From Malacoraja senta (Eukaryota): a stretch of DNA of 64,000 nucleotides. Position numbers and translations under genes: made by a program. Location: contig CM075988.1 of NCBI GenBank assembly GCA_038087875.1, positions 5,022,001-5,086,000 on the forward strand, written 5' to 3'. A model generated the notes under the pieces. That model searched no databases and was not told the DNA's origin. It saw only the letters and a list, made by a program, of their open reading frames with translations. Shown here one piece after another: positions 3,431 through 64,000 of this stretch (position 1 is its first letter; every line of letters starts with the position of its first letter).

Positions 3431-3752
3431 GACCTTGAAGGTTTGGACTGACTGTCCACTCTACACGGCATGCAATCTTACATGTCCACTGGCTTTTCCC
3501 TTACAATTTGAGCCCTGCACTCCTGTTGATGTGGAGGTGCAAGAAGTAATATATCACTGTCCACAGACATAATGACCTGTCAGTGCAAGAAACACAAGGG
3601 TGAACGGCAGCTTGGGCAGGGACAGAAAATGGTTGGTTGCAGATGCATTGTGAAAAGTAAAATGTCTCCGAGTTATTTACCAGATGGAGATAGACCATGA
3701 GTATGATCCATTACAAGCTGCTGATTGTATCCTGCTGCATTTCTTATCTTGA

Positions 3753-3806
3753 GGGGTGGGAGATTGCAACCTTCACATGGTCCGCCCTGTTTCGACAAAT
3801 GCAATC
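3753..3806 (+). ncRNA. Minimal HDV-like self-cleaving ribozyme fold, copy 1
   Basis: P1 GGGGUGG/CCGCCCU with G1-U wobble, P2 GAUUGCA/UGCAAUC, P3 ACC/GGU, L3 UUCACAU, J4/2 CAAA (CGAA in the other copies). Confidence 0.7.
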
Positions 3807-3811
3807 AACCT

Positions 3812-3866
<55 letters not shown>
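3753..3866 (+). mobile_element. Short non-autonomous element (putative Vingi/Ingi-related) with 5' HDV-like ribozyme; 3' part replaced by (GT)n
   Basis: Starts GGGGTGGGAGATTGCAACCTTCACATGGTCCGCCCTGTTTCGACAAATGCAATC. 8-bp direct repeat TATCTTGA at 3745-3752 and 3867-3874. Homologous to the copies at 28522-28661 and 47677-48632. Confidence 0.75.
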
Positions 3867-6800
3867 TATCTTGAGGAATGTATTGTAAAAGAAATGTAAT
3901 TAATTTAATCAAATAACTATGATATTCTATGGACAGAAGGAATGGGTGACGTTTTGGGTCGAGACCCTTCTTCAGCATTTTGTGTCTATCTTCGGTGTAA
4001 ACCAGCATCTGCAGTTCATTCCTTCACATGACATTCTATAGACTGTGTCTTAGGTTGCAATATAGACTTTTGTATGGAACTATTATGGTTACCTAGTATT
4101 ACTGTTTTTAATTTATCGTATTATTGAGGATTATAAACCTATGGGCTGTCTTTTTGCATATCTTTCAATCATTTGTCTTTCGTTTCCCTCGCCCCTCACT
4201 TTCAGCCTGAAGAAGGGTCTCTTCCTGAAACGTCACCTATTCCTTTCCTCCAGAGATGCTGCCTGCCCGGTTGAGTTACTCCAGCTTTTTCTGCCTATCT
4301 TTGGTTATTTAGTAGTTTAGTTTGGTTTGGTTTAAAGATACAGACTGGAAACAGGCCCTTCGGTCCACTGAGTCCGTGCTGACCAGCCAGTGGTCACCCC
4401 TACACTGGTTCTTTCCTACACATTGGAGATAGTTTACAGAAGCCAATTACCCTAGAAACCTGTACGTCTTTGGAATGTGGGAGGAAACTGGAGCACCCGG
4501 AGAAAACCCACGCAGTCACGGGGAGAACGTACAAACTCCACACAGACAGCACCCGTAGGCAGGATCGAACTTGGATCTCTGGCGCCGTAAGGCAGCAACT
4601 CGACCGCTAGTTTTATTGTTATTAATTTATTGTATTATTGATTATTATACATTTATTCGTGTGTTAATGGGCCTGTTAATGGGAATGTTAAGCTGCAGCA
4701 AGTAAGAATTTTATTGATCCATTGCCATTACATATGACAATTAAACACTCTTGACTCTTGAACTATTGATAAGTTGCTCACTTGAGGCATGCATTATTCA
4801 TTTAAAAGCAGTTGATAGTTAACTGTATGACCTGCTTTGCTGATGTTTTATAATGGAATCCATGGGCTGGGTATAAACTAAATATATGTTTTCCACCCGT
4901 CATGCCCACTGCTCCACAGAAACCTATAGGGTTGAAGGGGATTAACATTTCATCAGTGAATTCAGGGATATCCCCTTCTTGTCCATTTCAATATGTAGGA
5001 AGGAACTGCAGATGCTGGTTTAGACCGAAGATAGACACGAAATGCTGGAGTAGCTCAGAGAGACAGGCAGCATCTCTGGATGGAAGGAATGGGTGACATT
5101 TCAGGTCGAGACCCTTCTTCAGACTCAGTGTGATGACGCGATACGTCACCCATTCCTTCCCTCCAGAGATGCTGCCTGTCCCGGTGAGTTACTCCAGCAT
5201 TTTGTGCCTATCTTTTGTTCATTTCAATATTTGATGTACAAAATCATGAAAGGAATAGATCGGGTAAAGTTATTTACCCAGAATAGGGGAATTGAGAATG
5301 GTAGGACATAGGTTTAAGGTGAGGAGGACAAGATGTAATAGGAACCTGAGGGGTCATTTTTTTACACAATGGGTAGTGGGTATATGGAGCGAGCTGTCTA
5401 GGAGGTAGTTGAGGCAGATACTATCATAACATTGAAGGGATATTTGGACAGGTACATGGATAGGATAGGTTTAGTGGGTTATGGGCCAAGTGTGGGCAGG
5501 TGGGACTAGTGTAGATGGGGCATATTGGTCGGTGAGGGCAAGTTGGGCCGAAGAGCATTTTTCCACACTACATGACTCTATGACTTCAATCTTTGTTGAT
5601 ACCAAGAGTCTTTAGTTTAGTTTAGTTTAGTTTAGTTTAGAGATACAGTGTGGAAACAAGCACTTCGGCCCACCGTGTCCGCGCCGACCAGCGATCCCCA
5701 CCCACACTTAACACTATCCTACACATTAGGGACAATTTACCTTTTTTTTTATCGAAGCCAATTAACTTACAAACCTGTACGTCGTTGGAGTGGTTAGTTT
5801 AGTTTATTGCCACATGTACCGAGGTACAGTAAAAAGCTTTTGTTACGTGCTATCCAGTCAGAGGAAAGACAATACATGATTACAATCGAGCCATTTACAG
5901 TTTATAGATACATGGTAAGGGAATAACGTTTAGTGCGAGGTAAAAAGTGTGGGAGGAAACCAGAGCTTCTGGGAAAATCCATGCAGGTCATGGTAAGAAT
6001 GTACAAACTCTGTGTAGACAGCCCCCGTAGTCAGGATCGAACCGGAGTCACTGGCGCTTTGAGGCAACAACTCTACCACTGCGCCACCGTGCTGCCTCAT
6101 CCCTTTCTTCTGGGTTTATGCCTCTGTTCCGCTTGGTGATATCTTCTGATGACACAAGGTGGAAACTGAGACTGGTGACTCAGCGCTGGAGCAACAGGGT
6201 GCATTGCGCCATCTGTTTTAATTCATTTCTTCAGAGAAATCGTTCTCTTCATTGAAGCAAGGGAAATAAAGCCCACAGATATCTGATAAGAAGGTTTACC
6301 ATCTAGAGGGGGCACAGTGGCATAGTGTAGGAGTTGCGGCCTTACAGAACTTGTAGCGCCAGAGACCCAGATGCGGTCCTGACTGCGGGTGCTGTCTGTA
6401 CGGAGTTTGTACGTTCTCCCCGTGACCGAATGGGTTTTCTCCGAGAACTTCGATTTCTTCCCACACTCCAAAAACGTACAGGTTTGCAGGTTAATCGGCT
6501 TGGTGTAAAAATTGACCCTGCTGTGTGTAGGATTGTGCTAATGTGTGGGGATTGCTGGTCGGTGCGGACTCGGTGGGCTGAAGGGCCTGTTTCATCGCTG
6601 TATCTGTAAACAAAAAAAGCAGAAAGGAGTCACTGAGCCCATTGTGCTTTTCACAGCTCTTTGTTGCAACTCTCCTAGATCAATTCCACTGCTCTGCCGT
6701 CTCCGGGTAGCTCTGCACATGTCAGCTGGGAGATGGATATTTGCCTTATTCAGAAGGACAGTGCTGAAGGCACAGTTAATGGGTTTCCATCGAGCAACGC

Positions 6801-14490: not shown

Positions 14491-16284
14491 AGAACCCTGG
14501 TATTGTGCAGTTTTACATGGTTAGATGCCACTAAGTAGATGGCAATGCCTTAACCATTTGAGTGTTGTAAGACCACTAGAGCCCCTTCCATCCTTATCAA
14601 GAGGAGTGCTAACCTTCTCTCCTTTCATACAACATATAAACTAATCGCATGTTATCATTATCATTTGTACAACAAACAAGTGTAAATATTACCAACTTGT
14701 AAGCCTTGGTTGTAGAGAAGGACCGGTAGGGTGCGTGGATTCCACATTTTTCCCGAAGCCGACTTGGGCCTTGGCTTGAAGACCTCTGCCCAGCTTTCAC
14801 GCTGCCACCAGCTTCAGTGAACTGCTTACTGCCGACCTTGACTGGTCCGACAGCTTTTGCTGCCTCATCCAGGTCTTACCTGTTGAATAGGTCTTACCTG
14901 AAGAGAACATTCAGTGGCTGGCCTCTGATGTCACCCCTGATAGCGCTGTTCACTGCCGGCACTTGTAGCATGAGGGGAACTCTGGCCCCTGCCAGGTATT
15001 CTGCCAACGGCTGGTAACCAACTCTTCTGGCAGCAACACCTTCGTTTGCGCGGATCCCTTGAAACCATACGCATGTGCTCCAGTATGTTCGACGGACATC
15101 CTTTAGAATTTGAGGTCAGTTACACACTGACCACTCGCACTCCCCTCCACAGAGAGGGAGATTCGTAGGCAGCCCTGAAACAGGTGCTGCCGCAGGCCCC
15201 TGAGGATACCTGCGCTGATATGGCCCCTCCTACAGACCTATACCAGGATGGAACATCACATTTGTGGAATAAACGCCCGAGGATGGTATCCATACTCCAT
15301 TTTCCTTGCGGGCACTTCTGATTTATGCCCTTCGTGCCTCGTGGTATACTCTCCAGCTATACCTTCGAACTCATGTCAGAACTGACCCCCAATGCTCCCC
15401 TCTTCAGAGAGGGAGACATTGTGCAGCCCTGAAACAGGTGCCGCTGCCGCGGGCTCCCGAGGAGACTCCCGGGCTGATAGCTCCCTCCTTTGGAGCATAT
15501 CATTGTGGAGCAACCTCTATATCAGGTGCTCCATGTGGGTGTAGACGTCCGAAGACGCTACCCATTAAAGGAGGGGAACCCTCCTGGCCTGACTCCCTGA
15601 GTCCATAGGCCTGACCGACTTATTGTTGGTTTTACCCCCTTTCATGGGTACCACAGCGGTCTGGGACACGCGTGCGCTCTGGCGGGCTTCTTCACGGAAT
15701 CACTCACGTGACTCCGAAGTAAAATTTTACTTTGCTGTGACAATAAAATACTATTGAACCATTGAACCATCCTCCACATCCTGCATTGCTCTAACACGGC
15801 CAATGCATGCTCCAGAACAGATTCAGAAGATCACCTTTTCCATATCCATTCCCATCTGTATTTCATATTTTCATTGTTCATGACTCCAATGTCTGAATCC
15901 TTCTCCTTTGTGCAGACCAACACCAAATATTAGGAAATGTATCCAGTCCATTTGCCTCTCGATACAGGCATGCTTCTTTCCTCATTCTTTATATGTTATG
16001 AAACATCCAAGGGATTGCATGCCAATATTTTTTGAGATTTACTTTAGATTTTAGAGAACAGCTCACCAGCTATCATCAACACTATCCTATACACACTGGG
16101 GACAATTTTACAATTTTAAGAAGTCTACAAACCTGTACGTCTTTAGAGTGTGTGAGAAAACCAGAGCTATTGGAGAAAACCCACATGGTCAAACGTACAA
16201 ACTCCGTACAGAGAGCACTTGTAGTCAGGATTGAACTTGGGTCTCTGGTGCTGCAACTCTACCGTTGCGCAACCATGCCGCCCT

Positions 16285-28350: not shown

Positions 28351-28521
28351 AACCCCCCCCCCCCCCCCCCGGACCTCCTCCTCAAACCAATACAGGTGTC
28401 AGGGGTTATGAGGAGAAGGCAGGAGAATGGGGTTAGGACGGAGAGGTAGATCAGTCATGTTTGAATGGGAGAGTAGACTTGATGGGCCGAATGGCCCTAA
28501 TTCGGCTCCTATCGCTTATGA

Positions 28522-28661
28522 CTTCTTTCTTCTTGCGTGTGCGTGCACAGCCTAAGATGTAGGACAACTTGTTCTATTTGATCTTATTTGATTGTGCACG
28601 CAGGGTTGATTGCATTCGTCGAAACAGGGCAGACCACGTGAAGGTTGCAATCTCCCACCCC
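28522..28661 (-). mobile_element. Full-length ~140-bp HDV-ribozyme-headed non-autonomous element with (GAA)n tail
   Basis: Minus strand starts GGGGTGGGAGATTGCAACC and ends GCACACGCAAGAAGAAAGAAG. TSD GCTTATGA at 28514-28521 and 28662-28669. Inserted into a CR1 3' tail. Confidence 0.8.
28608..28661 (-). ncRNA. Minimal HDV-like ribozyme fold, copy 2 (best preserved)
   Basis: GGGGUGG-GA-GAUUGCA-ACC-UUCACGU-GGU-CUGCCCU-GUUUCGA-CGAA-UGCAAUC: nested P1/P2/P3 pseudoknot order with the catalytic-C position in CGAA. Confidence 0.78.
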
Positions 28662-29693
28662 GCTTATGACCTTATGATCTTGGACAAAATCGATGGTGGG
28701 AAGTCTGGTCTGTGTTATGGGCTGGGCTACATCTTCATCTCTGTAACTTCTTGTGGTCTTGAGCAGTGCTGTTCTCAAACCAAACTGTAATCTGTGTGGT
28801 TTTTATGTTGCATCTGTGGAAGTTTGCAAGAGTCAATGGGGACATACCAGTTTTCTTAGTCTCCGCAGGAAGTAGAGATGCTCGTGTGGCTTCCTCATCC
28901 TCCGGTGTCAATGACTCTCTCCTGCTTCCGGCTCCCGGTCCTGGGATGCGGGTGAGAGATGAGCCTCAGACAATCTCCAGGCGGGTACCATGTCCATCGA
29001 TGCCGGTGGCTGAGGGTCGAGTTTGGAGGCCACTCCCTTCGTCAGGCCGCGGCCCGACAGGTCCCTTGTTGTCCGGCCACATGGCCCAGTGGGACCCTTA
29101 TCTTCCTTCTGAAGAAGGGTCTCGACCCGAAGTGCCACCTATCCATTTTCTCCAGAGATGCTGCCTGACCAGCCGAGTTACTCCAGCACTTTGTGTCTGT
29201 CTTCGGTATAAACTAGCATCTGCAGTTAATTTATAATAAGTTTATTCTATCTCACTGATGCTTGTGATCCACTGTGCTTAACTCGGCAACCTCTGAACTT
29301 TCCAAATGCTTTAAGAGGCCAGTTAGAGCAGGAATCTATCCTGGACAGTGACTACTGCAGGAGCCACTACTGTGGCACGGTGGCACAGCGATAGAGCTAC
29401 TGCCTTATGTTGCCAGAGACCTGGGTTCAATCCTGATTACGGGTGCTGTCTTCACGGAGTTTGTATGTTCTCCCCGCGACCTCGTGGGTTTTCTCTGAGA
29501 TCTTCTCCAAAGCCGTACAGGTTTGTAGGTTAATTGGCTTGGTTATAAATTTTAGAATGTCCCTAGTGTGTGTAGGGCAGTGTTAATGTGTGTGGATCGC
29601 TGGTCGGTGCAGACTCGATGGAACAAAGGGCCAGTTTCCATGCTGTATCTCTAAACTAAACTAAACTAAAATAAACGAAACTAAAGCTGACAG

Positions 29694-47676: not shown

Positions 47677-48632
47677 CCTTCTTCTTCTTCTTACGACGGC
47701 CAGTGCCAGATTTATATGCCAGATTTATCGGCTATTCCACTTGTGAGGCCCCTCCCAATCCCCCCACCCCCCACAACGAGAGGAAGATGGAAGAGTGTTT
47801 TAAATAATTTGGGTAATGCCAAGGATGATGATGGGTGTTTAAAATTCCACAATTTGCAATTCCTTCTCTAAAGGACATAAAATTGTATTGTTAAATACCG
47901 TAGTGATTGAAAAAAAAAAGCATACATGTTAAAATTAACTGTGAAAAACTTTTGCTACAAATAAGCTTAGTTTTATTACTAACCTGACAGTGGCAGCCAC
48001 GGCACTACACAGTAGGTTTCTAGCAACGATTATCAGCTCTATCCCTAGCATTGCTCCTTGCCAACTTCCTAGTTCAAATATCTTTGCGCTTTCCTACTTA
48101 CCCCTGAGTTTTGACTTTTGAAGCCTGCAAGATGTTCCCTGGCTGCACCCGCCATCGCTGCTTACTGGAGCACGTGTGAACGTTTGCCGGACCCCGGTGC
48201 CACCAGATTGACACCGATGTGCAGCCGAGCGTGGCCAATGAGATACGGGGCTGGAAAGCTGCGTTCTTTAAAAAATTATTTATTGCCAGTGCTAGTGTCG
48301 AGTTATCGGCTAAAAACAGTATTATTCTGAAATGGAGGGCAAGGAAAATTACTGAATGGTTGTTTAGAGACTACAGTGCGTTGTAACAGCATATGTAAGA
48401 AAGGCTATGACTGTGTCAAAAATATTATACACCTTGGCCAGAGGCCCCCTAGATTGTGAGGCCCTAGACTTCAGCCTACCAAGCCTATAGGTAAATCTGG
48501 CACTGTGTACGGCGTGCACAGCCTAAAGTTGCAGGACAACTTGGTCTATTTGATCTTATTTGACTGTGCACGCCGGGTTGATTGCATTCGTCAAAACAGG
48601 GTGGAACACGTGAAGTTGCAATCTTCCACCCC
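47677..48632 (-). mobile_element. Third copy of the HDV-ribozyme-headed element, split by a hAT-like insertion
   Basis: (CTT)n tail at 47677-47692, body at 48506-48632, ribozyme at 48580-48632 (P1 GGGGUGG/CCACCCU, P3 damaged). TSD AAAGAGAC at 47669-47676 and 48633-48640. Confidence 0.75.
47701..48505. mobile_element. Non-autonomous hAT-like DNA transposon (805 bp)
   Basis: 14-bp TIR CAGTGCCAGATTTA / TAAATCTGGCACTG. Degenerate 8-bp TSD ACGACGGC / TGTACGGC. No transposase ORF. Confidence 0.75.
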
Positions 48633-63109: not shown

Positions 63110-63430
63110 TAGCTTGCTCTTTGTCCCTCTGCTCAGAGCCTGCTCCGGGCTCAGAAGCACCATGGGTCCAGTGGAAGACGCTCAACTGCCTGAGAACAGG
63201 AACAGGACGATCAAAAGATGCCATGGCCAGATGGGGCTATGAAACTGGCCAAACCACCTGTGAATGTGGAGAAGAGGACCACACAATGCAGCACTGCCTT
63301 CTCTGCCCCCTACTACCCAACCAGTGCAGCTCAAAGGATCTTGCAGTCTTCAATAAAAACGCAAAGGACTGTGTAAAGGAATGGGAAACTGTCATTTGCC
63401 AACCAGCTTCAAAGACACGAAAAGAAGAAG
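63110..63430 (+). mobile_element. Vingi/Ingi-type LINE 3' end
   Basis: PGSEAPWVQWKTLNCLRTGTGRSKDAMARWG...CECGEEDHTMQHCLLCP (CxC-H-C zinc-binding C-terminus), very short 3' UTR, tail ACACGAAAAGAAGAAG. Confidence 0.72.
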
Positions 63431-64000
63431 TGAGCAGCACAGCGGCACAATGGTAGAGTTGCTGCCTTACAGGGCCAGGGACCCTTACTTCGGGTTCTGT
63501 CTGTATGAGGTTTGTATTTTCTCCCTGTGACCACGTGGGTTTTCTGCGGGTGTTCCGGTTTCCTCCCGCACTCCAAAGATGTGCAGGTCTGTAGATTAAT
63601 TGGCGTCTGTAAATTGTCCCTAGCGTGTAGGATAGTGCTAGTGAACGGGGTGATTGTTGGTCGGTGTGGACTTGGTGGGCCGAAAGGCCTGTTTCCACGC
63701 TACGTCTCTGAAACTCTAAAACTAAAACTATGCAAAGAAGGGAGGTGGGCCAATACATTGGAAGATTGAATTCTACAATTTTTAGGTTATAACTGCCACC
63801 CCCCCCCCCTTCTTCCCTCCCCTGTTTTCCCTGTGACCAAGCAGGTGTGCACCCATTTCTTCAACTGTCCCACTCCTCTTTCTCCTGACCCCTGGTCCCT
63901 TCCACCTATATCGTCAGGCTTCACATTTCACTTCTCTTATCGCCTTATCTAGCACCCTTCTGTTTCCTTTTCTGCTCTGGCCTTTCTCCACCCCCTCACT

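What the first reader, a model, noticed from the sequence alone, without database searches (positions are those of the whole stretch)
28522..28661. A ~140-bp retroposon headed by a minimal (nearly P4-less) HDV-like ribozyme, three copies in the window
Seen in sequence: three dispersed copies (3753-3866 +, 28522-28661 -, 47677-48632 -) each begin immediately after an 8-bp TSD (TATCTTGA, GCTTATGA, AAAGAGAC) with GGGGTGG. The first 54 nt parse as P1 GGGGUGG/CCGCCCU with a G1-U wobble, J1/2 GA, P2 GAUUGCA/UGCAAUC, P3 ACC/GGU, L3 UUCACGU, a 7-nt GUUUCGA in place of P4, and J4/2 CGAA. Variation in the P1 3' strand (CCGCCCU, CUGCCCU, CCACCCU) keeps pairing. No tRNA A/B boxes are visible. Established: this is the strand order of HDV/CPEB3-type ribozymes, and such ribozymes define the 5' ends of R2, L1Tc/Ingi and some RTE elements. 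Inference: the element is released from read-through transcripts by self-cleavage and mobilised in trans, i.e. a ribozyme-headed SINE-like family in an elasmobranch. I cannot tell whether it is already catalogued.
Basis: partly seen in the sequence, partly recalled or inferred. Interest (0 to 1): 0.92.

Follow-up and report, generated by a model that had tools for sequence, protein, structure and literature searches.

The report
Ribozyme-headed short retroposon family
A 140-base mobile element present in thousands of copies starts with a stripped-down self-cleaving-RNA fold of the hepatitis-delta/CPEB3 type, and the same genome holds a whole guild of longer and shorter jumping elements headed by close relatives of the mammalian CPEB3 ribozyme.

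Summary
Three copies lie in the window. [quoted passage not shown] The 956-bp "copy" is an ordinary 140-bp copy split by an unrelated 805-bp inverted-repeat transposon.

Genome-wide the family is young (about 3.5% non-CpG divergence) and abundant: 3102 exact tail words and 2296 exact core patterns. Of 31 tail-selected copies, 28 begin at G1 (±2). All end in (AAG)n.

Real covariation comes from sister families in the same genome. The Rfam CPEB3 model gives 39 matches above its threshold. These head at least one 3.1-kb endonuclease/RT LINE with an (AAG)n tail and other short elements. All helices covary and the catalytic core is invariant. A model built without the SINE finds its heads (E about 1e-5).

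Self-cleavage itself is untested. PolyA RNA reads showed no pile of 5' ends at G1. No LINE shares the element's unique tail. It is a new variant of a known kind.

The parts
28523..28661 (-). Copy A, a full-length element of about 139 nt.
   Evidence: flanked by TSD GTCATAAGC
28608..28661 (-). Copy A ribozyme head (nt 1-54). P1 pairs 1-7 with 30-36, P2 pairs 10-16 with 48-54, and P3 pairs 17-19 with 27-29. L3 is 20-26. In P1.1, C22 pairs with G37. A vestigial P4 occupies 38-43. J4/2 is C44-A47.
   Evidence: Model R1, built without this family, scores 28.5 bits (E 3.9e-5) at exactly these ends. Rfam HDV-F-prausnitzii scores 12.6 bits, below threshold, at the same ends.
28535..28607 (-). Copy A body: linker AACCC, then a long hairpin (GCGUGCACA...UGUGCACGC). 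It is presumed to be the 3' recognition domain.
   Evidence: the hairpin is in the minimum-energy fold of the 140-nt RNA
28523..28534 (-). Copy A (AAG)n-type tail.
   Evidence: the same tail is seen in copies genome-wide
28662..28670 (-). Copy A 5' target-site duplication, GTCATAAGC.
28514..28522 (-). Copy A 3' target-site duplication, GTCATAAGC.
3753..3866 (+). Copy B: the head (3753-3806) plus AACCTGG, then (TG)n instead of the body. Its TSD TATCTTGA lies at 3745-3752 and 3867-3874.
   Evidence: R1 scores 23.7 bits at 3753-3806 with filters off on a 401-nt stretch.
47677..48632 (-). Copy C: a normal element (head 48632-48580) interrupted by a nested transposon. Its TSD GTCTCTTT lies at 48640-48633 and 47676-47669.
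   Evidence: R1 scores 20.9 bits at 48632-48580
47701..48505 (-). Nested 805-bp element with CAGTG...CACTG inverted ends and 8-bp flanks. It is hAT-like and non-autonomous, and it is not part of the retroposon.
   Evidence: One search shows an independent family of at least 40 scored copies at 84-93% identity, without the ribozyme head.
63143..63431 (+). A 5'-truncated copy (the last 289 bp) of the 3.1-kb ribozyme-headed LINE with an (AAG)n tail. This LINE is the candidate autonomous partner.
   Evidence: 97.6% identical to L135:2873-3161

Best explanation
The element is a young, high-copy, non-autonomous non-LTR retroposon of about 138 nt plus an (AAG)n tail.

Its first 54 nt are a minimal, P4-less member of the HDV/CPEB3 class of self-cleaving ribozymes. 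They are placed so that scission falls immediately 5' of element nucleotide 1.

The remaining ~75 nt form a long hairpin ending in ...ACGC(AAG)n.

Proposed cycle:
1. A copy is transcribed as part of a longer host or read-through RNA (inferred).
2. The head folds co-transcriptionally and cuts itself free, giving an RNA that starts at G1 (inferred from family membership; not assayed).
3. The reverse transcriptase of an (AAG)n-tailed endonuclease/RT LINE primes on the (AAG)n end by target-primed reverse transcription and copies to the 5' end. This gives full-length, TSD-flanked insertions that begin at G1. The footprints are shown; the identity of the enzyme is inferred.

The best candidate partner is the 3.1-kb LINE found here. 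It carries a full-size CPEB3-type ribozyme at its own first nucleotide and the same kind of tail.

The element belongs to a guild of at least six ribozyme-headed families in this genome.
For: **Retroposon hallmarks**
- The 121-nt query gave 1040 first-look candidates. All 40 scored were 96-100% identical, and 38 of 40 start at query base 1.
- The core pattern has 2296 exact matches against 0 for the reversed control. The tail 22-mer has 3102 exact matches against 0.
- In the first 31 tail-selected places on contig 1, 28 copies start at G1 (±2) and 3 are 5'-truncated by 5, about 19 and 97 nt.
- An exact TSD of at least 7 nt was found in 50 of 64 distinct copies. The start offset was 0 in 20, +1 in 11, and -1 or -2 in 9.

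**Ribozyme identity**
- The Rfam CPEB3 model finds 60 matches in this genome. Of these, 39 reach or exceed the gathering score of 35 bits, and the best is 64.2 bits.
- The 27 matches fetched fall into families that all start at a G-run abutting unrelated flanks.
- In an 18-sequence MAFFT alignment of these plus the element, 90% of cells pair, against 34-45% when partners are slid. 18 of 26 pairs change on both sides. The covariation score is 0.425 against at most 0.10, and 0 of 500 shuffles reach it.
- Invariant in 18 of 18 sequences: U20, U21, C22, C24, U26 (L3), G37, U38, C44 (the J4/2 cytosine), A46 and U48.
- Model R1, built from 16 sequences of the other families only, hits copy A at exactly 28661-28608 (28.5 bits, E 3.9e-5). 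This is the only hit at E<=10 in the window. It also hits 27 of 30 position-sampled genomic copies at nt 1-54.
- L3 UUCACGU, CCCUGU and J4/2 CGAA equal the Rfam CPEB3 consensus printed. The residue numbering G1.U36, U20.G25, C22 is that of the CPEB3 NMR paper (PMC4836649, passages).
- P4-less HDV-like ribozymes are catalytically active elsewhere (bioRxiv 10.1101/2023.06.13.544163, passages).
- A second P4-less family of about 190 bp, with an (AAG)n tail and a TSD, exists here.

**Candidate partner**
- L135:22-3161 is a TSD-flanked element with a CPEB3-type head, Exo_endo_phos and RVT_1 ORFs, and a ...CACGAA(AAG)n end.
- Its 3' end occurs exactly 180 times in the genome, including once in the window.
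Against: - No cleavage assay exists.
- In the only raw-read RNA run (polyA, a coded organism, 6% of the run read), no place passed the tool's test for many molecules beginning or ending. 169 reads ran through position 28661 into unlike flanks, against a depth of about 200-320 there. Efficient cleavage with a stable product is therefore not seen. The test is weak: both orientations are covered about equally, many copies carry core mutations, and the threshold is a fifth of the depth.
- The element's own head does not reach any Rfam threshold. HDV-F-prausnitzii scores 12.6 against 44 bits (E 8.9) on 401 nt. Nothing appears at E<=10 on 14 other copies. CPEB3 is not listed for it.
- Nested folding of the 54 nt is no more stable than shuffles (z +1.18).
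- In the 140-nt fold, nt 1-5 pair with 56-60 instead of P1, a possible competing helix.
- Stems and loops of genomic copies are equally diverged. This is expected for dead copies, so it is neutral evidence.
- No LINE shares the element's head, body or terminal 19 nt. The counts were 67, 207, 16 and 6 pattern hits, and those inspected were indel variants, truncated copies or chimeras. The candidate LINE shares only ...ACG.A(AAG)n.
Confidence: 0.72

Rival explanations
1. The head is a relic or a structural module, not an active ribozyme. Under this reading, loss of P4 abolished or crippled scission. The double-pseudoknot fold is kept because the LINE protein binds it, or because it protects the uncapped 5' end. 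The fixed 5' end would come from transcription initiation or other processing.
For: - No pile of RNA 5' ends is seen at G1, and many reads run through the site.
- The head scores below every Rfam threshold.
- R2 protein is reported to bind a pseudoknot within its 5' ribozyme, and the ribozyme fold is described as giving cap-like protection in engineered templates (PMC6765202 passages; PMC13708176 passages).
- A competing helix between 1-5 and 56-60 appears in the 140-nt fold.
Against: - Every core residue that is invariant across the sister families, including the J4/2 cytosine and the G1.U closing pair, is kept in the majority sequence.
- Natural P4-less HDV-like ribozymes cleave.
- Two P4-less families have each spread widely here.
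- The element's first nucleotide coincides with the predicted scissile site to within 1-2 nt.
Confidence: 0.2
2. The element is an ordinary promoter-driven SINE (pol III or pol II internal promoter), and the HDV-like parse is a coincidence.
For: - The 5' ends are precise, as in pol III SINEs.
- A weak B-box-like TTCGA lies at nt 39-43 (read from the sequence).
- The loose descriptor has 1.2 chance hits per 128 kb.
Against: - ARAGORN finds no tRNA.
- No small-RNA family appears in Rfam at E<=10 other than the HDV hit.
- No A box is present.
- The independent model hit has E 3.9e-5 at the exact ends.
- The head is collinear, and covaries, with families that pass the CPEB3 threshold.
Confidence: 0.03
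3. The element is a simple internal-deletion derivative (a SIDE) of the 3.1-kb ribozyme-headed LINE found here.
For: The architecture is the same: ribozyme at nt 1 and an (AAG)n tail. R2 SIDEs set the precedent (PMC3414825, abstract).
Against: - P1, P2 and P3 strands all differ from the LINE's, and P4 is absent.
- The body has no match in the LINE.
- No intermediate with the same head and another P4, or with the same tail on a longer element, exists. The counts were 6 and 16 pattern hits, all variants of the element.
Confidence: 0.05

Closest known systems
R2 SIDEs and R2/R1 hybrid SIDEs of Drosophila (Eickbush & Eickbush 2012, PMC3414825; abstract read)
   Same: Both are short non-autonomous elements made of a 5' HDV-like ribozyme joined to a LINE-type 3' end. 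Both are propagated in trans by target-primed reverse transcription. The hybrid SIDEs show that a ribozyme head can ride on another LINE's tail.
   Different: SIDEs are rare, site-specific in rDNA, co-transcribed by pol I, and plainly deleted copies of a known parent. This element is dispersed and present in thousands of copies. It has a P4-less head, and no parent shares its head or body.
L1Tc/NARTc and the Pr77 hallmark of trypanosomatids (PMC3185411, PMC3383444 from the search listing; PMC4035085 abstract)
   Same: In both, an HDV-like ribozyme occupies the first tens of nucleotides of dispersed LINEs and of their non-autonomous SINE-like derivatives. It releases the element RNA from co-transcripts.
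   Different: Those are protist elements with poly(A)-type biology, and the same 77 nt also act as a promoter. Here the host genome is vertebrate-like, the tails are (AAG)n, no promoter function is known, and the ribozyme sequence is of the CPEB3 type.
Mammalian CPEB3 ribozyme (Rfam RF00622; PMC4836649 passages)
   Same: The strand order and numbering are the same up to G37/U38. L3 UUCACGU, CCCUGU and J4/2 CGAA are identical to the Rfam consensus. Sister families in this genome score 35-64 bits against a threshold of 35. One of them (L127) matches the consensus at 52 of 61 aligned positions, including the P2 and P4 strands (my count on the alignment printed).
   Different: CPEB3 is a single conserved intronic copy in mammals with a full P4. 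This is a multicopy transposon head without P4, with different P1, P2 and P3 strands. The element's own head does not reach the CPEB3 threshold.
Minimal HDV-like (theta) ribozymes of gut phages (bioRxiv 10.1101/2023.06.13.544163, passages; Riccitelli et al. 2014 known only as cited there)
   Same: Both have the double-pseudoknot core with the P4 domain missing, a catalytic C in J4/2, and cleavage 5' of G1.
   Different: Those were found in phage and metagenome DNA next to tRNAs, processing 3' trailers. This one is at the 5' end of a eukaryotic retroposon. No sequence relationship was tested.
RTE-clade and Vingi-clade LINEs, i.e. compact single-ORF APE/RT elements. Vingi is described in PMC13708176 (passages). 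HDV-like ribozymes in RTE (Ruminski et al. 2011) are known to me only from citations; the paper was not held.
   Same: The candidate partner is about 3.1 kb and has endonuclease and RT domains, no RNase H hit, tiny UTRs and a microsatellite tail. Its RT has 50-65% identical relatives of about 1000 aa in lizard, sea urchin, amphioxus and insects.
   Different: The clade was not determined, because no reference LINE library (Repbase/Dfam) was available.

Membership tests
HDV-like (delta-like) self-cleaving ribozymes | Nested double pseudoknot in the strand order P1-P2-P3-L3-P3'-P1'-(P4)-J4/2-P2' | tested here: met
   The descriptor matches at nt 1 of all three copies. Across 18 sequences of 6 families plus this one, 90% of cells pair, against 34-45% when slid, and 18 of 26 pairs change on both sides.
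HDV-like (delta-like) self-cleaving ribozymes | Cytosine at the start of J4/2 (the general acid) and the L3/P1.1 core residues | tested here: met
   C44, U20, U21, C22, C24, U26, G37 and U38 are invariant in 18 of 18 sequences. The pair C22-G37 is C-G in 17 of 17 distinct rows.
HDV-like (delta-like) self-cleaving ribozymes | G.U wobble closing P1 at the scissile site | tested here: met
   G1.U36 is present in copies A, B and C. In the alignment, 7 rows have G.U, 6 have no standard pair and 4 have a gap. Most of the rows without a pair are copies whose first G is missing.
HDV-like (delta-like) self-cleaving ribozymes | P4 helix | tested here: not met
   Only UUUCGA lies between G37 and C44. P4 is not obligatory for the class, since minimal forms lack it.
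HDV-like (delta-like) self-cleaving ribozymes | Divalent-ion-dependent self-scission 5' of G1 | not testable with these tools
   This needs an in vitro transcription and cleavage assay. RNA reads gave no pile of starts at G1, which is a weak test.
Rfam HDV-type and CPEB3 models (RF02682, RF00622 and others) | Score at or above the family's gathering threshold | tested here: not met
   The element's head scores 12.6 against 44 bits for RF02682, and no RF00622 hit appears at E<=10. Sister families in the genome do pass: 39 of 60 matches reach at least 35 bits for RF00622.
This genome's CPEB3-type transposon-head ribozymes (model R1, built without the element) | Significant match over the whole model at the element's first nucleotides | tested here: met
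   Copy A scores 28.5 bits (E 3.9e-5) and is the only hit in 64 kb. 27 of 30 sampled copies hit at E<=1, of which 22 at E<0.01. Copies B and C score 23.7 and 20.9 bits. E-values from this model are rough.
Classical SINE | Head derived from tRNA, 7SL, 5S or snRNA with an internal pol III promoter | tested here: not met
   ARAGORN finds 0 genes. No such Rfam family appears at E<=10.
Classical SINE | LINE-type retroposition footprints: TSDs, 3' repeat tail and 5' truncations | tested here: met
Classical SINE | Unique 3' tail shared with a partner LINE | tested here: not met
   Only ...ACG.A(AAG)n is shared with the 3.1-kb LINE. No longer element carries the body or the last 19 nt.
SIDE (short internally deleted element) | The 5' and 3' ends are those of an identifiable parent LINE | tested here: not met
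   The head helices and the body differ from those of the only LINE characterised.

The most novel reading that the evidence does not exclude
The mammalian CPEB3 ribozyme may be a domesticated 5' end of this lineage of (AAG)n-tailed, ribozyme-headed LINEs and SINEs. This genome would then still hold the active ancestors. Its transposon heads pass the Rfam 'mammalian CPEB3' threshold by up to 29 bits. One family shares even the catalytically unconstrained P2 and P4 strands with the CPEB3 consensus. Within the guild, evolution has twice kept a P4-less 54-nt form that still supports mass retroposition. That form would be the first minimal HDV-like ribozyme with a known role in a eukaryote.
Probability: 0.4. 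Interest if true: 0.85.

Novelty: new variant of a known kind. Interest (0 to 1): 0.72.

Why it matters
HDV-like ribozymes are known to cut non-LTR retrotransposons free of co-transcripts. That is documented for R2, L1Tc and RTE and a few rare non-autonomous derivatives.

Three things here go beyond that.
- A dispersed, thousands-of-copies SINE-like family has a head that is a ribozyme rather than a small-RNA promoter.
- A natural P4-less HDV-like ribozyme occurs in a eukaryotic mobile element. Such minimal forms were reported from phage and metagenome data.
- A whole guild of transposon heads satisfies the model of the mammalian CPEB3 ribozyme. The origin of that ribozyme is not addressed in the passages I read.

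If the homology holds, the origin of the CPEB3 ribozyme becomes directly testable by comparative genomics. These elements would also give a natural series (full P4, short P4, no P4) for structure-function work.

Thousands of potentially self-cleaving sites inside introns and UTRs could also affect host transcripts.

Tried and rejected
**Rfam**
- At gathering thresholds the window gives only U6atac.
- In E-value mode on copy A there is only a non-significant HDV-F-prausnitzii hit.
- On 14 other copies there is nothing.

**Nested folding**
- It cannot represent the pseudoknot and gave no signal.

**Covariation within the family**
- Rejected as a test. All frequent variants are CpG transitions or the J1/2 G8A marker.

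**Search for a partner LINE through shared sequence**
- The best 30 RT loci do not match.
- The other patterns were: body without head, head without body, last 19 nt without body, and head with another P4.
- I inspected 14 candidates chosen by eye from the first 100 rows and all 67 rows. All were indel variants, inverted dimers, truncated copies or chimeras.
- 107 rows were never listed, so a rare LINE could hide there.

**Sequencing runs**
- No RNA holder was listed.
- Contigs of older runs end at G1, but that reflects graph branching at a repeat edge and says nothing about RNA ends.

**Earlier notes of this scan**
- Nothing was found by place, sequence or words.

**Protein searches**
- The ESM Atlas look-up of the LINE RT gave no clade or taxon.
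- The big protein search gave relatives but no clade names.

**Papers**
- I found no paper on HDV-like or CPEB3-like ribozymes in sharks or elasmobranchs, or on 'CPEB3-like ribozyme'.
- Searches gave only the known systems.
- Kojima 2011 (Vingi) and Ruminski 2011 (RTE ribozymes) are not held. Prior description there, or in Repbase/Dfam, cannot be excluded.

**Remaining CPEB3-model matches**
- The other 33 could not be fetched.

**Host taxon**
- Not tested.
Full report
**What is in the window**

Reading the three places and a sensitive BLAST of the window against itself confirm three copies and no further fragments.

- Copy A runs 28661->28523 on the minus strand. It is complete: a 54-nt head, a ~75-nt body, the tail AAGAAGAAAGAA and a 9-bp TSD GTCATAAGC.
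- Copy B runs 3753-3866 on the plus strand. It has the head and seven more bases, then (TG)n, and a TSD TATCTTGA.
- Copy C runs 48632->47677 on the minus strand, with TSD GTCTCTTT and an (AAG)n tail. It is split at 48505->47701 by an 805-bp element with CAGTG...CACTG ends and 8-bp flanks. That inner part is a separate repeat family with 1948 first-look candidates. The related loci fetched lack the head. The '956-bp copy' is therefore a nested insertion, not a long form.

**The family genome-wide**

The window's own assembly (1.94 Gb) could be searched but not downloaded.

- The first 121 nt gave 1040 first-look candidates. All 40 scored were 96-100% identical, and 38 of 40 begin at query base 1.
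- An exact pattern of the unpaired core (L3, ten free bases, GTTTCGACGAA) occurs 2296 times, against 0 for the reversed control.
- A CpG-free 22-mer of the body occurs 3102 times, against 0.

Pattern hits are listed in genome order, so their first rows are a sample unbiased by similarity.

- Of the first 30 core hits, 28 are full elements with TSDs and (AAG)n tails. One is a segmental duplicate and one is rearranged at its 5' end.
- Of the first 31 tail hits, 11 coincide with core hits. The other 20 were fetched.
- In all, 28 of 31 start at G1 (±2). Three are truncated by 5, about 19 and 97 nt. Three others carry internal deletions.
- A script found an exact TSD of at least 7 nt in 50 of 64 distinct copies. 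The element start was at offset 0 in 20, +1 in 11 (often ambiguous because the TSD ends in G), and -1 or -2 in 9.

Divergence from the majority sequence is 3.7% (head) and 3.4% (body) at non-CpG sites, and 11-13% at CpG sites. Stems and loops do not differ (3.75% against 3.5%). The copies are young and decay neutrally.

The majority P1 3' strand is CCGCCCU. The two variants CUGCCCU and CCACCCU are C>T and G>A at the one CpG. They keep pairing only because C>U opposite G gives G.U, and G>A opposite U turns a wobble into U-A. Every other frequent variant in my sample, and in the DNA contigs of other coded organisms, is also a CpG transition, apart from G8A in J1/2. Within the family there is no informative covariation.

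**Is the head a ribozyme fold?**

- A generic HDV-like descriptor hits the window only at the three heads and in a dinucleotide repeat. The descriptor required 7-bp P1 with G1.U, P2 of at least 5 bp, 3-bp P3, L3 of 6-8 nt with a C, G after P1', and C at J4/2.
- It is loose, giving 1.2 chance hits per 128 kb of Markov sequence. Its value lies in the coincidence with nucleotide 1.
- Rfam gives only a non-significant HDV-F-prausnitzii alignment. It spans exactly 28661-28608 with P4 deleted (12.6 bits). There is nothing on 14 other copies.
- ARAGORN finds no tRNA.

**The decisive result**

Searching the genome with Rfam's CPEB3_ribozyme model gave 60 matches. Of these, 39 reach or exceed the gathering score of 35 bits, up to 64.2 bits. 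I fetched 27 of them.

The fetched matches fall into families.

- **F1:** P1 GGGGAUC/GAUCCCU, P2 GGUAGAA/UUCUACC, P3 GCG/CGC, an 8-bp P4.
- **F2:** P1 GGGGGUC/GACCCCU, J4/2 CUAA.
- **F3:** P2 AGCAGGA/UCCUGCU, L3 UUCUCGU, P4 UCAGAUUCU...GAAUCUG.
- **F4:** P2 AGAAGGA/UCCUUCU, a 5-bp P4.
- **F6:** P2 GGAAAGA/UCUUUCC, and no P4 (GUUUCCA then CCAA).

In each family the similarity between copies begins at the G-run. Upstream sequences are unrelated.

MAFFT aligned these with two copies of the element in 79 columns without help from structure. On that alignment:

- 90.0% of 391 cells form standard pairs, against 33.8-45.3% when 3' partners are slid by 1-3 columns.
- 18 of 26 pairs show changes on both sides.
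- The covariation score is 0.425, against at most 0.101.
- 0 of 500 shuffles reach the observed values on four of five measures.
- P2 changes on both sides at 6 of 7 pairs, P4 at 7 of 8, P1 at 3 of 7 and P3 at 2 of 3.
- Invariant in all 18 rows: U20, U21, C22, C24, U26, C34, C35, G37, U38, C44, A46 and U48.

There are caveats. For each sequence I chose the J1/2 and P4 lengths that maximised pairing before extracting it. Rows within a family are not independent. Many rows are decayed copies.

As an independent membership test I built a covariance model (R1) from the 16 non-element rows only, using P2, P3 and P4 as nested structure.

- In the 64-kb window its only hit at E<=10 is 28661-28608 (28.5 bits, E 3.9e-5).
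- It hits 27 of 30 position-sampled copies at exactly nt 1-54. The three misses are L033, L036 and L044.
- It hits copies B and C at 23.7 and 20.9 bits in small unfiltered searches.
- E-values of this quickly calibrated model are rough.

**Relation to CPEB3**

The cmscan alignments print the Rfam consensus.

- The element shares L3 UUCACGU, CCCUGU and J4/2 CGAA+U with it.
- Its residue numbers G1.U36, U20.G25 and C22 are those used for CPEB3 in PMC4836649 (passages).
- The R2 core motif quoted in PMC5035012 (CCUCCUCGUGG, passage) matches the element's CCUUCACGUGG at 9 of 11 positions.
- F3 (locus L127) equals the CPEB3 consensus at 52 of 61 aligned positions by my count on that printout. One P2 difference is compensated on both strands, and P4 is almost the same.
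- P2 and P4 vary freely among the families here, so this likeness is better explained by common descent than by convergence. That is an inference. I did not determine the host taxon.

**The candidate partner**

One F1 copy was read through (L135).

- The element spans L135:22-3161 between TSDs ACTGCTGTTCA and ACTGATGTTCA.
- It starts at GGGGAUC.
- It carries ORF pieces with Exo_endo_phos (E 9.5e-9) and RVT_1 (E 2.9e-31).
- It ends ...CACGAAAAGAAGAAG about 25 nt after the stop.
- Its 3' end occurs exactly 180 times. Several occurrences lie about 3.1 kb downstream of F1 heads listed.
- One is in the window: a 289-bp 5'-truncated copy at 63143-63431, 97.6% identical.
- Its RT has 50-65% identical relatives of about 1000 aa in lizard, sea urchin, amphioxus and insects.
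- The clade (RTE-like or Vingi-like) could not be decided.

F6 is a second short element of about 190 bp, ending ...CGAUAAGAAG, with a TSD in L133. A CpG-tolerant core motif of the F3/F4/F6 type occurs 1798 times, against 46 for the reversed control.

The element, F6 and the LINE share only a terminal CG-N1-2-AAGAAG. No longer element shares the element's head, body or last 19 nt. Partnership with this LINE is therefore plausible but unproven.

Chimeric copies with the head joined to foreign 3' sequence inside one TSD (window copy B; L104) fit template switching during reverse transcription. This has been described for R2.

**RNA evidence**

No listed holder was on record as RNA. One raw polyA run of a coded organism was laid.

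- Depth on the element was about 70-190 in each mate orientation.
- No position passed the tool's test for many molecule starts or ends.
- 169 reads continued past 28661 into diverse flanks.

Efficient cleavage with a stable product is not seen. The test has little power. About half the reads must be antisense. Many copies are mutated: only 2296 keep the exact core. Only 6% of the run was read, and the threshold is one fifth of local depth.

The C44-to-U variant was 7 of 126 and 33 of 170 in the two orientations of the RNA run, against 0-2.5% of contig depth in three other organisms. Because the organisms differ, this comparison is suggestive at most.

**Verdict**

- The sequence observation is confirmed.
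- The element is a SINE-like retroposon whose head is a minimal member of a CPEB3/HDV-type ribozyme guild.
- The mechanism (self-release, then trans-mobilisation by an (AAG)n-tailed LINE) is the best explanation, but the catalytic step is not shown.
- The kind is known (R2 SIDEs, NARTc).
- Beyond what I could find in print are the P4-less form in a eukaryotic transposon, the scale, and the link to the CPEB3 ribozyme.
- Key older papers and Repbase/Dfam could not be consulted.

Noticed in passing
whole genome; loci L115-L134, L136-L142: The Rfam 'mammalian CPEB3 ribozyme' model has 39 matches above threshold, up to 64 bits, in this genome. All those inspected lie at the first nucleotides of dispersed repeats. 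One family (L125, L127, L139) shares even the P2 and P4 strands with the CPEB3 consensus.
   Followed up: partly
window 63143-63431 (+); L135:22-3161: A 3.1-kb single-ORF endonuclease/RT LINE has a full-size CPEB3-type ribozyme at nt 1 and an (AAG)n tail. The window holds a 289-bp 5'-truncated copy.
   Followed up: partly
L129-L134 (for example L133:251-304 for the head): A second P4-less ribozyme-headed short element of about 190 bp has an (AAG)n tail and a TSD. Its genomic copies start with four Gs, although five would complete a 7-bp P1 with G.U.
   Followed up: partly
window 47701-48505 (-): An 805-bp non-autonomous element with CAGTG/CACTG inverted ends and 8-bp flanks is nested in copy C. 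It is hAT-like and has many copies genome-wide.
   Followed up: partly
window 14509-14635 (-): A U6atac minor-spliceosomal snRNA gene, 110.9 bits, covering the full model.
   Followed up: no
window 28400-28497 and 28662-28735: Copy A sits inside a copy of a far more abundant repeat, whose read and contig depth is several times that of the element. Many other insertions also lie in or beside that repeat, which contains ...GGGCCGAATGGCC...
   Followed up: no
window 3807-3866; L104: Some chimeric copies join the 54-63-nt head to foreign 3' sequence, (TG)n or 19 unrelated nt, within a single TSD. This suggests template switching onto the element RNA just past the ribozyme.
   Followed up: partly
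genome: A deletion variant recurs in which TGCAATC runs straight into AAATAAGATCAA, with loss of ACCYGGCGTGCACAATC between two AATCAA repeats. It accounts for about a quarter of the first 100 'head without body' hits. It could be a subfamily or repeated slippage.
   Followed up: no
window 28618 (C44 of copy A): The catalytic-C-to-U variant is 5-19% in the polyA RNA reads, against 0-2.5% of contig depth in three other coded organisms. This would fit enrichment of uncleavable copies in RNA, but the organisms differ.
   Followed up: no
copy A nt 1-5 and 56-60 (window 28661-28657 and 28606-28602): GGGGU can pair with ACCCU just after P2 in the 140-nt fold. This helix would compete with P1.
   Followed up: no
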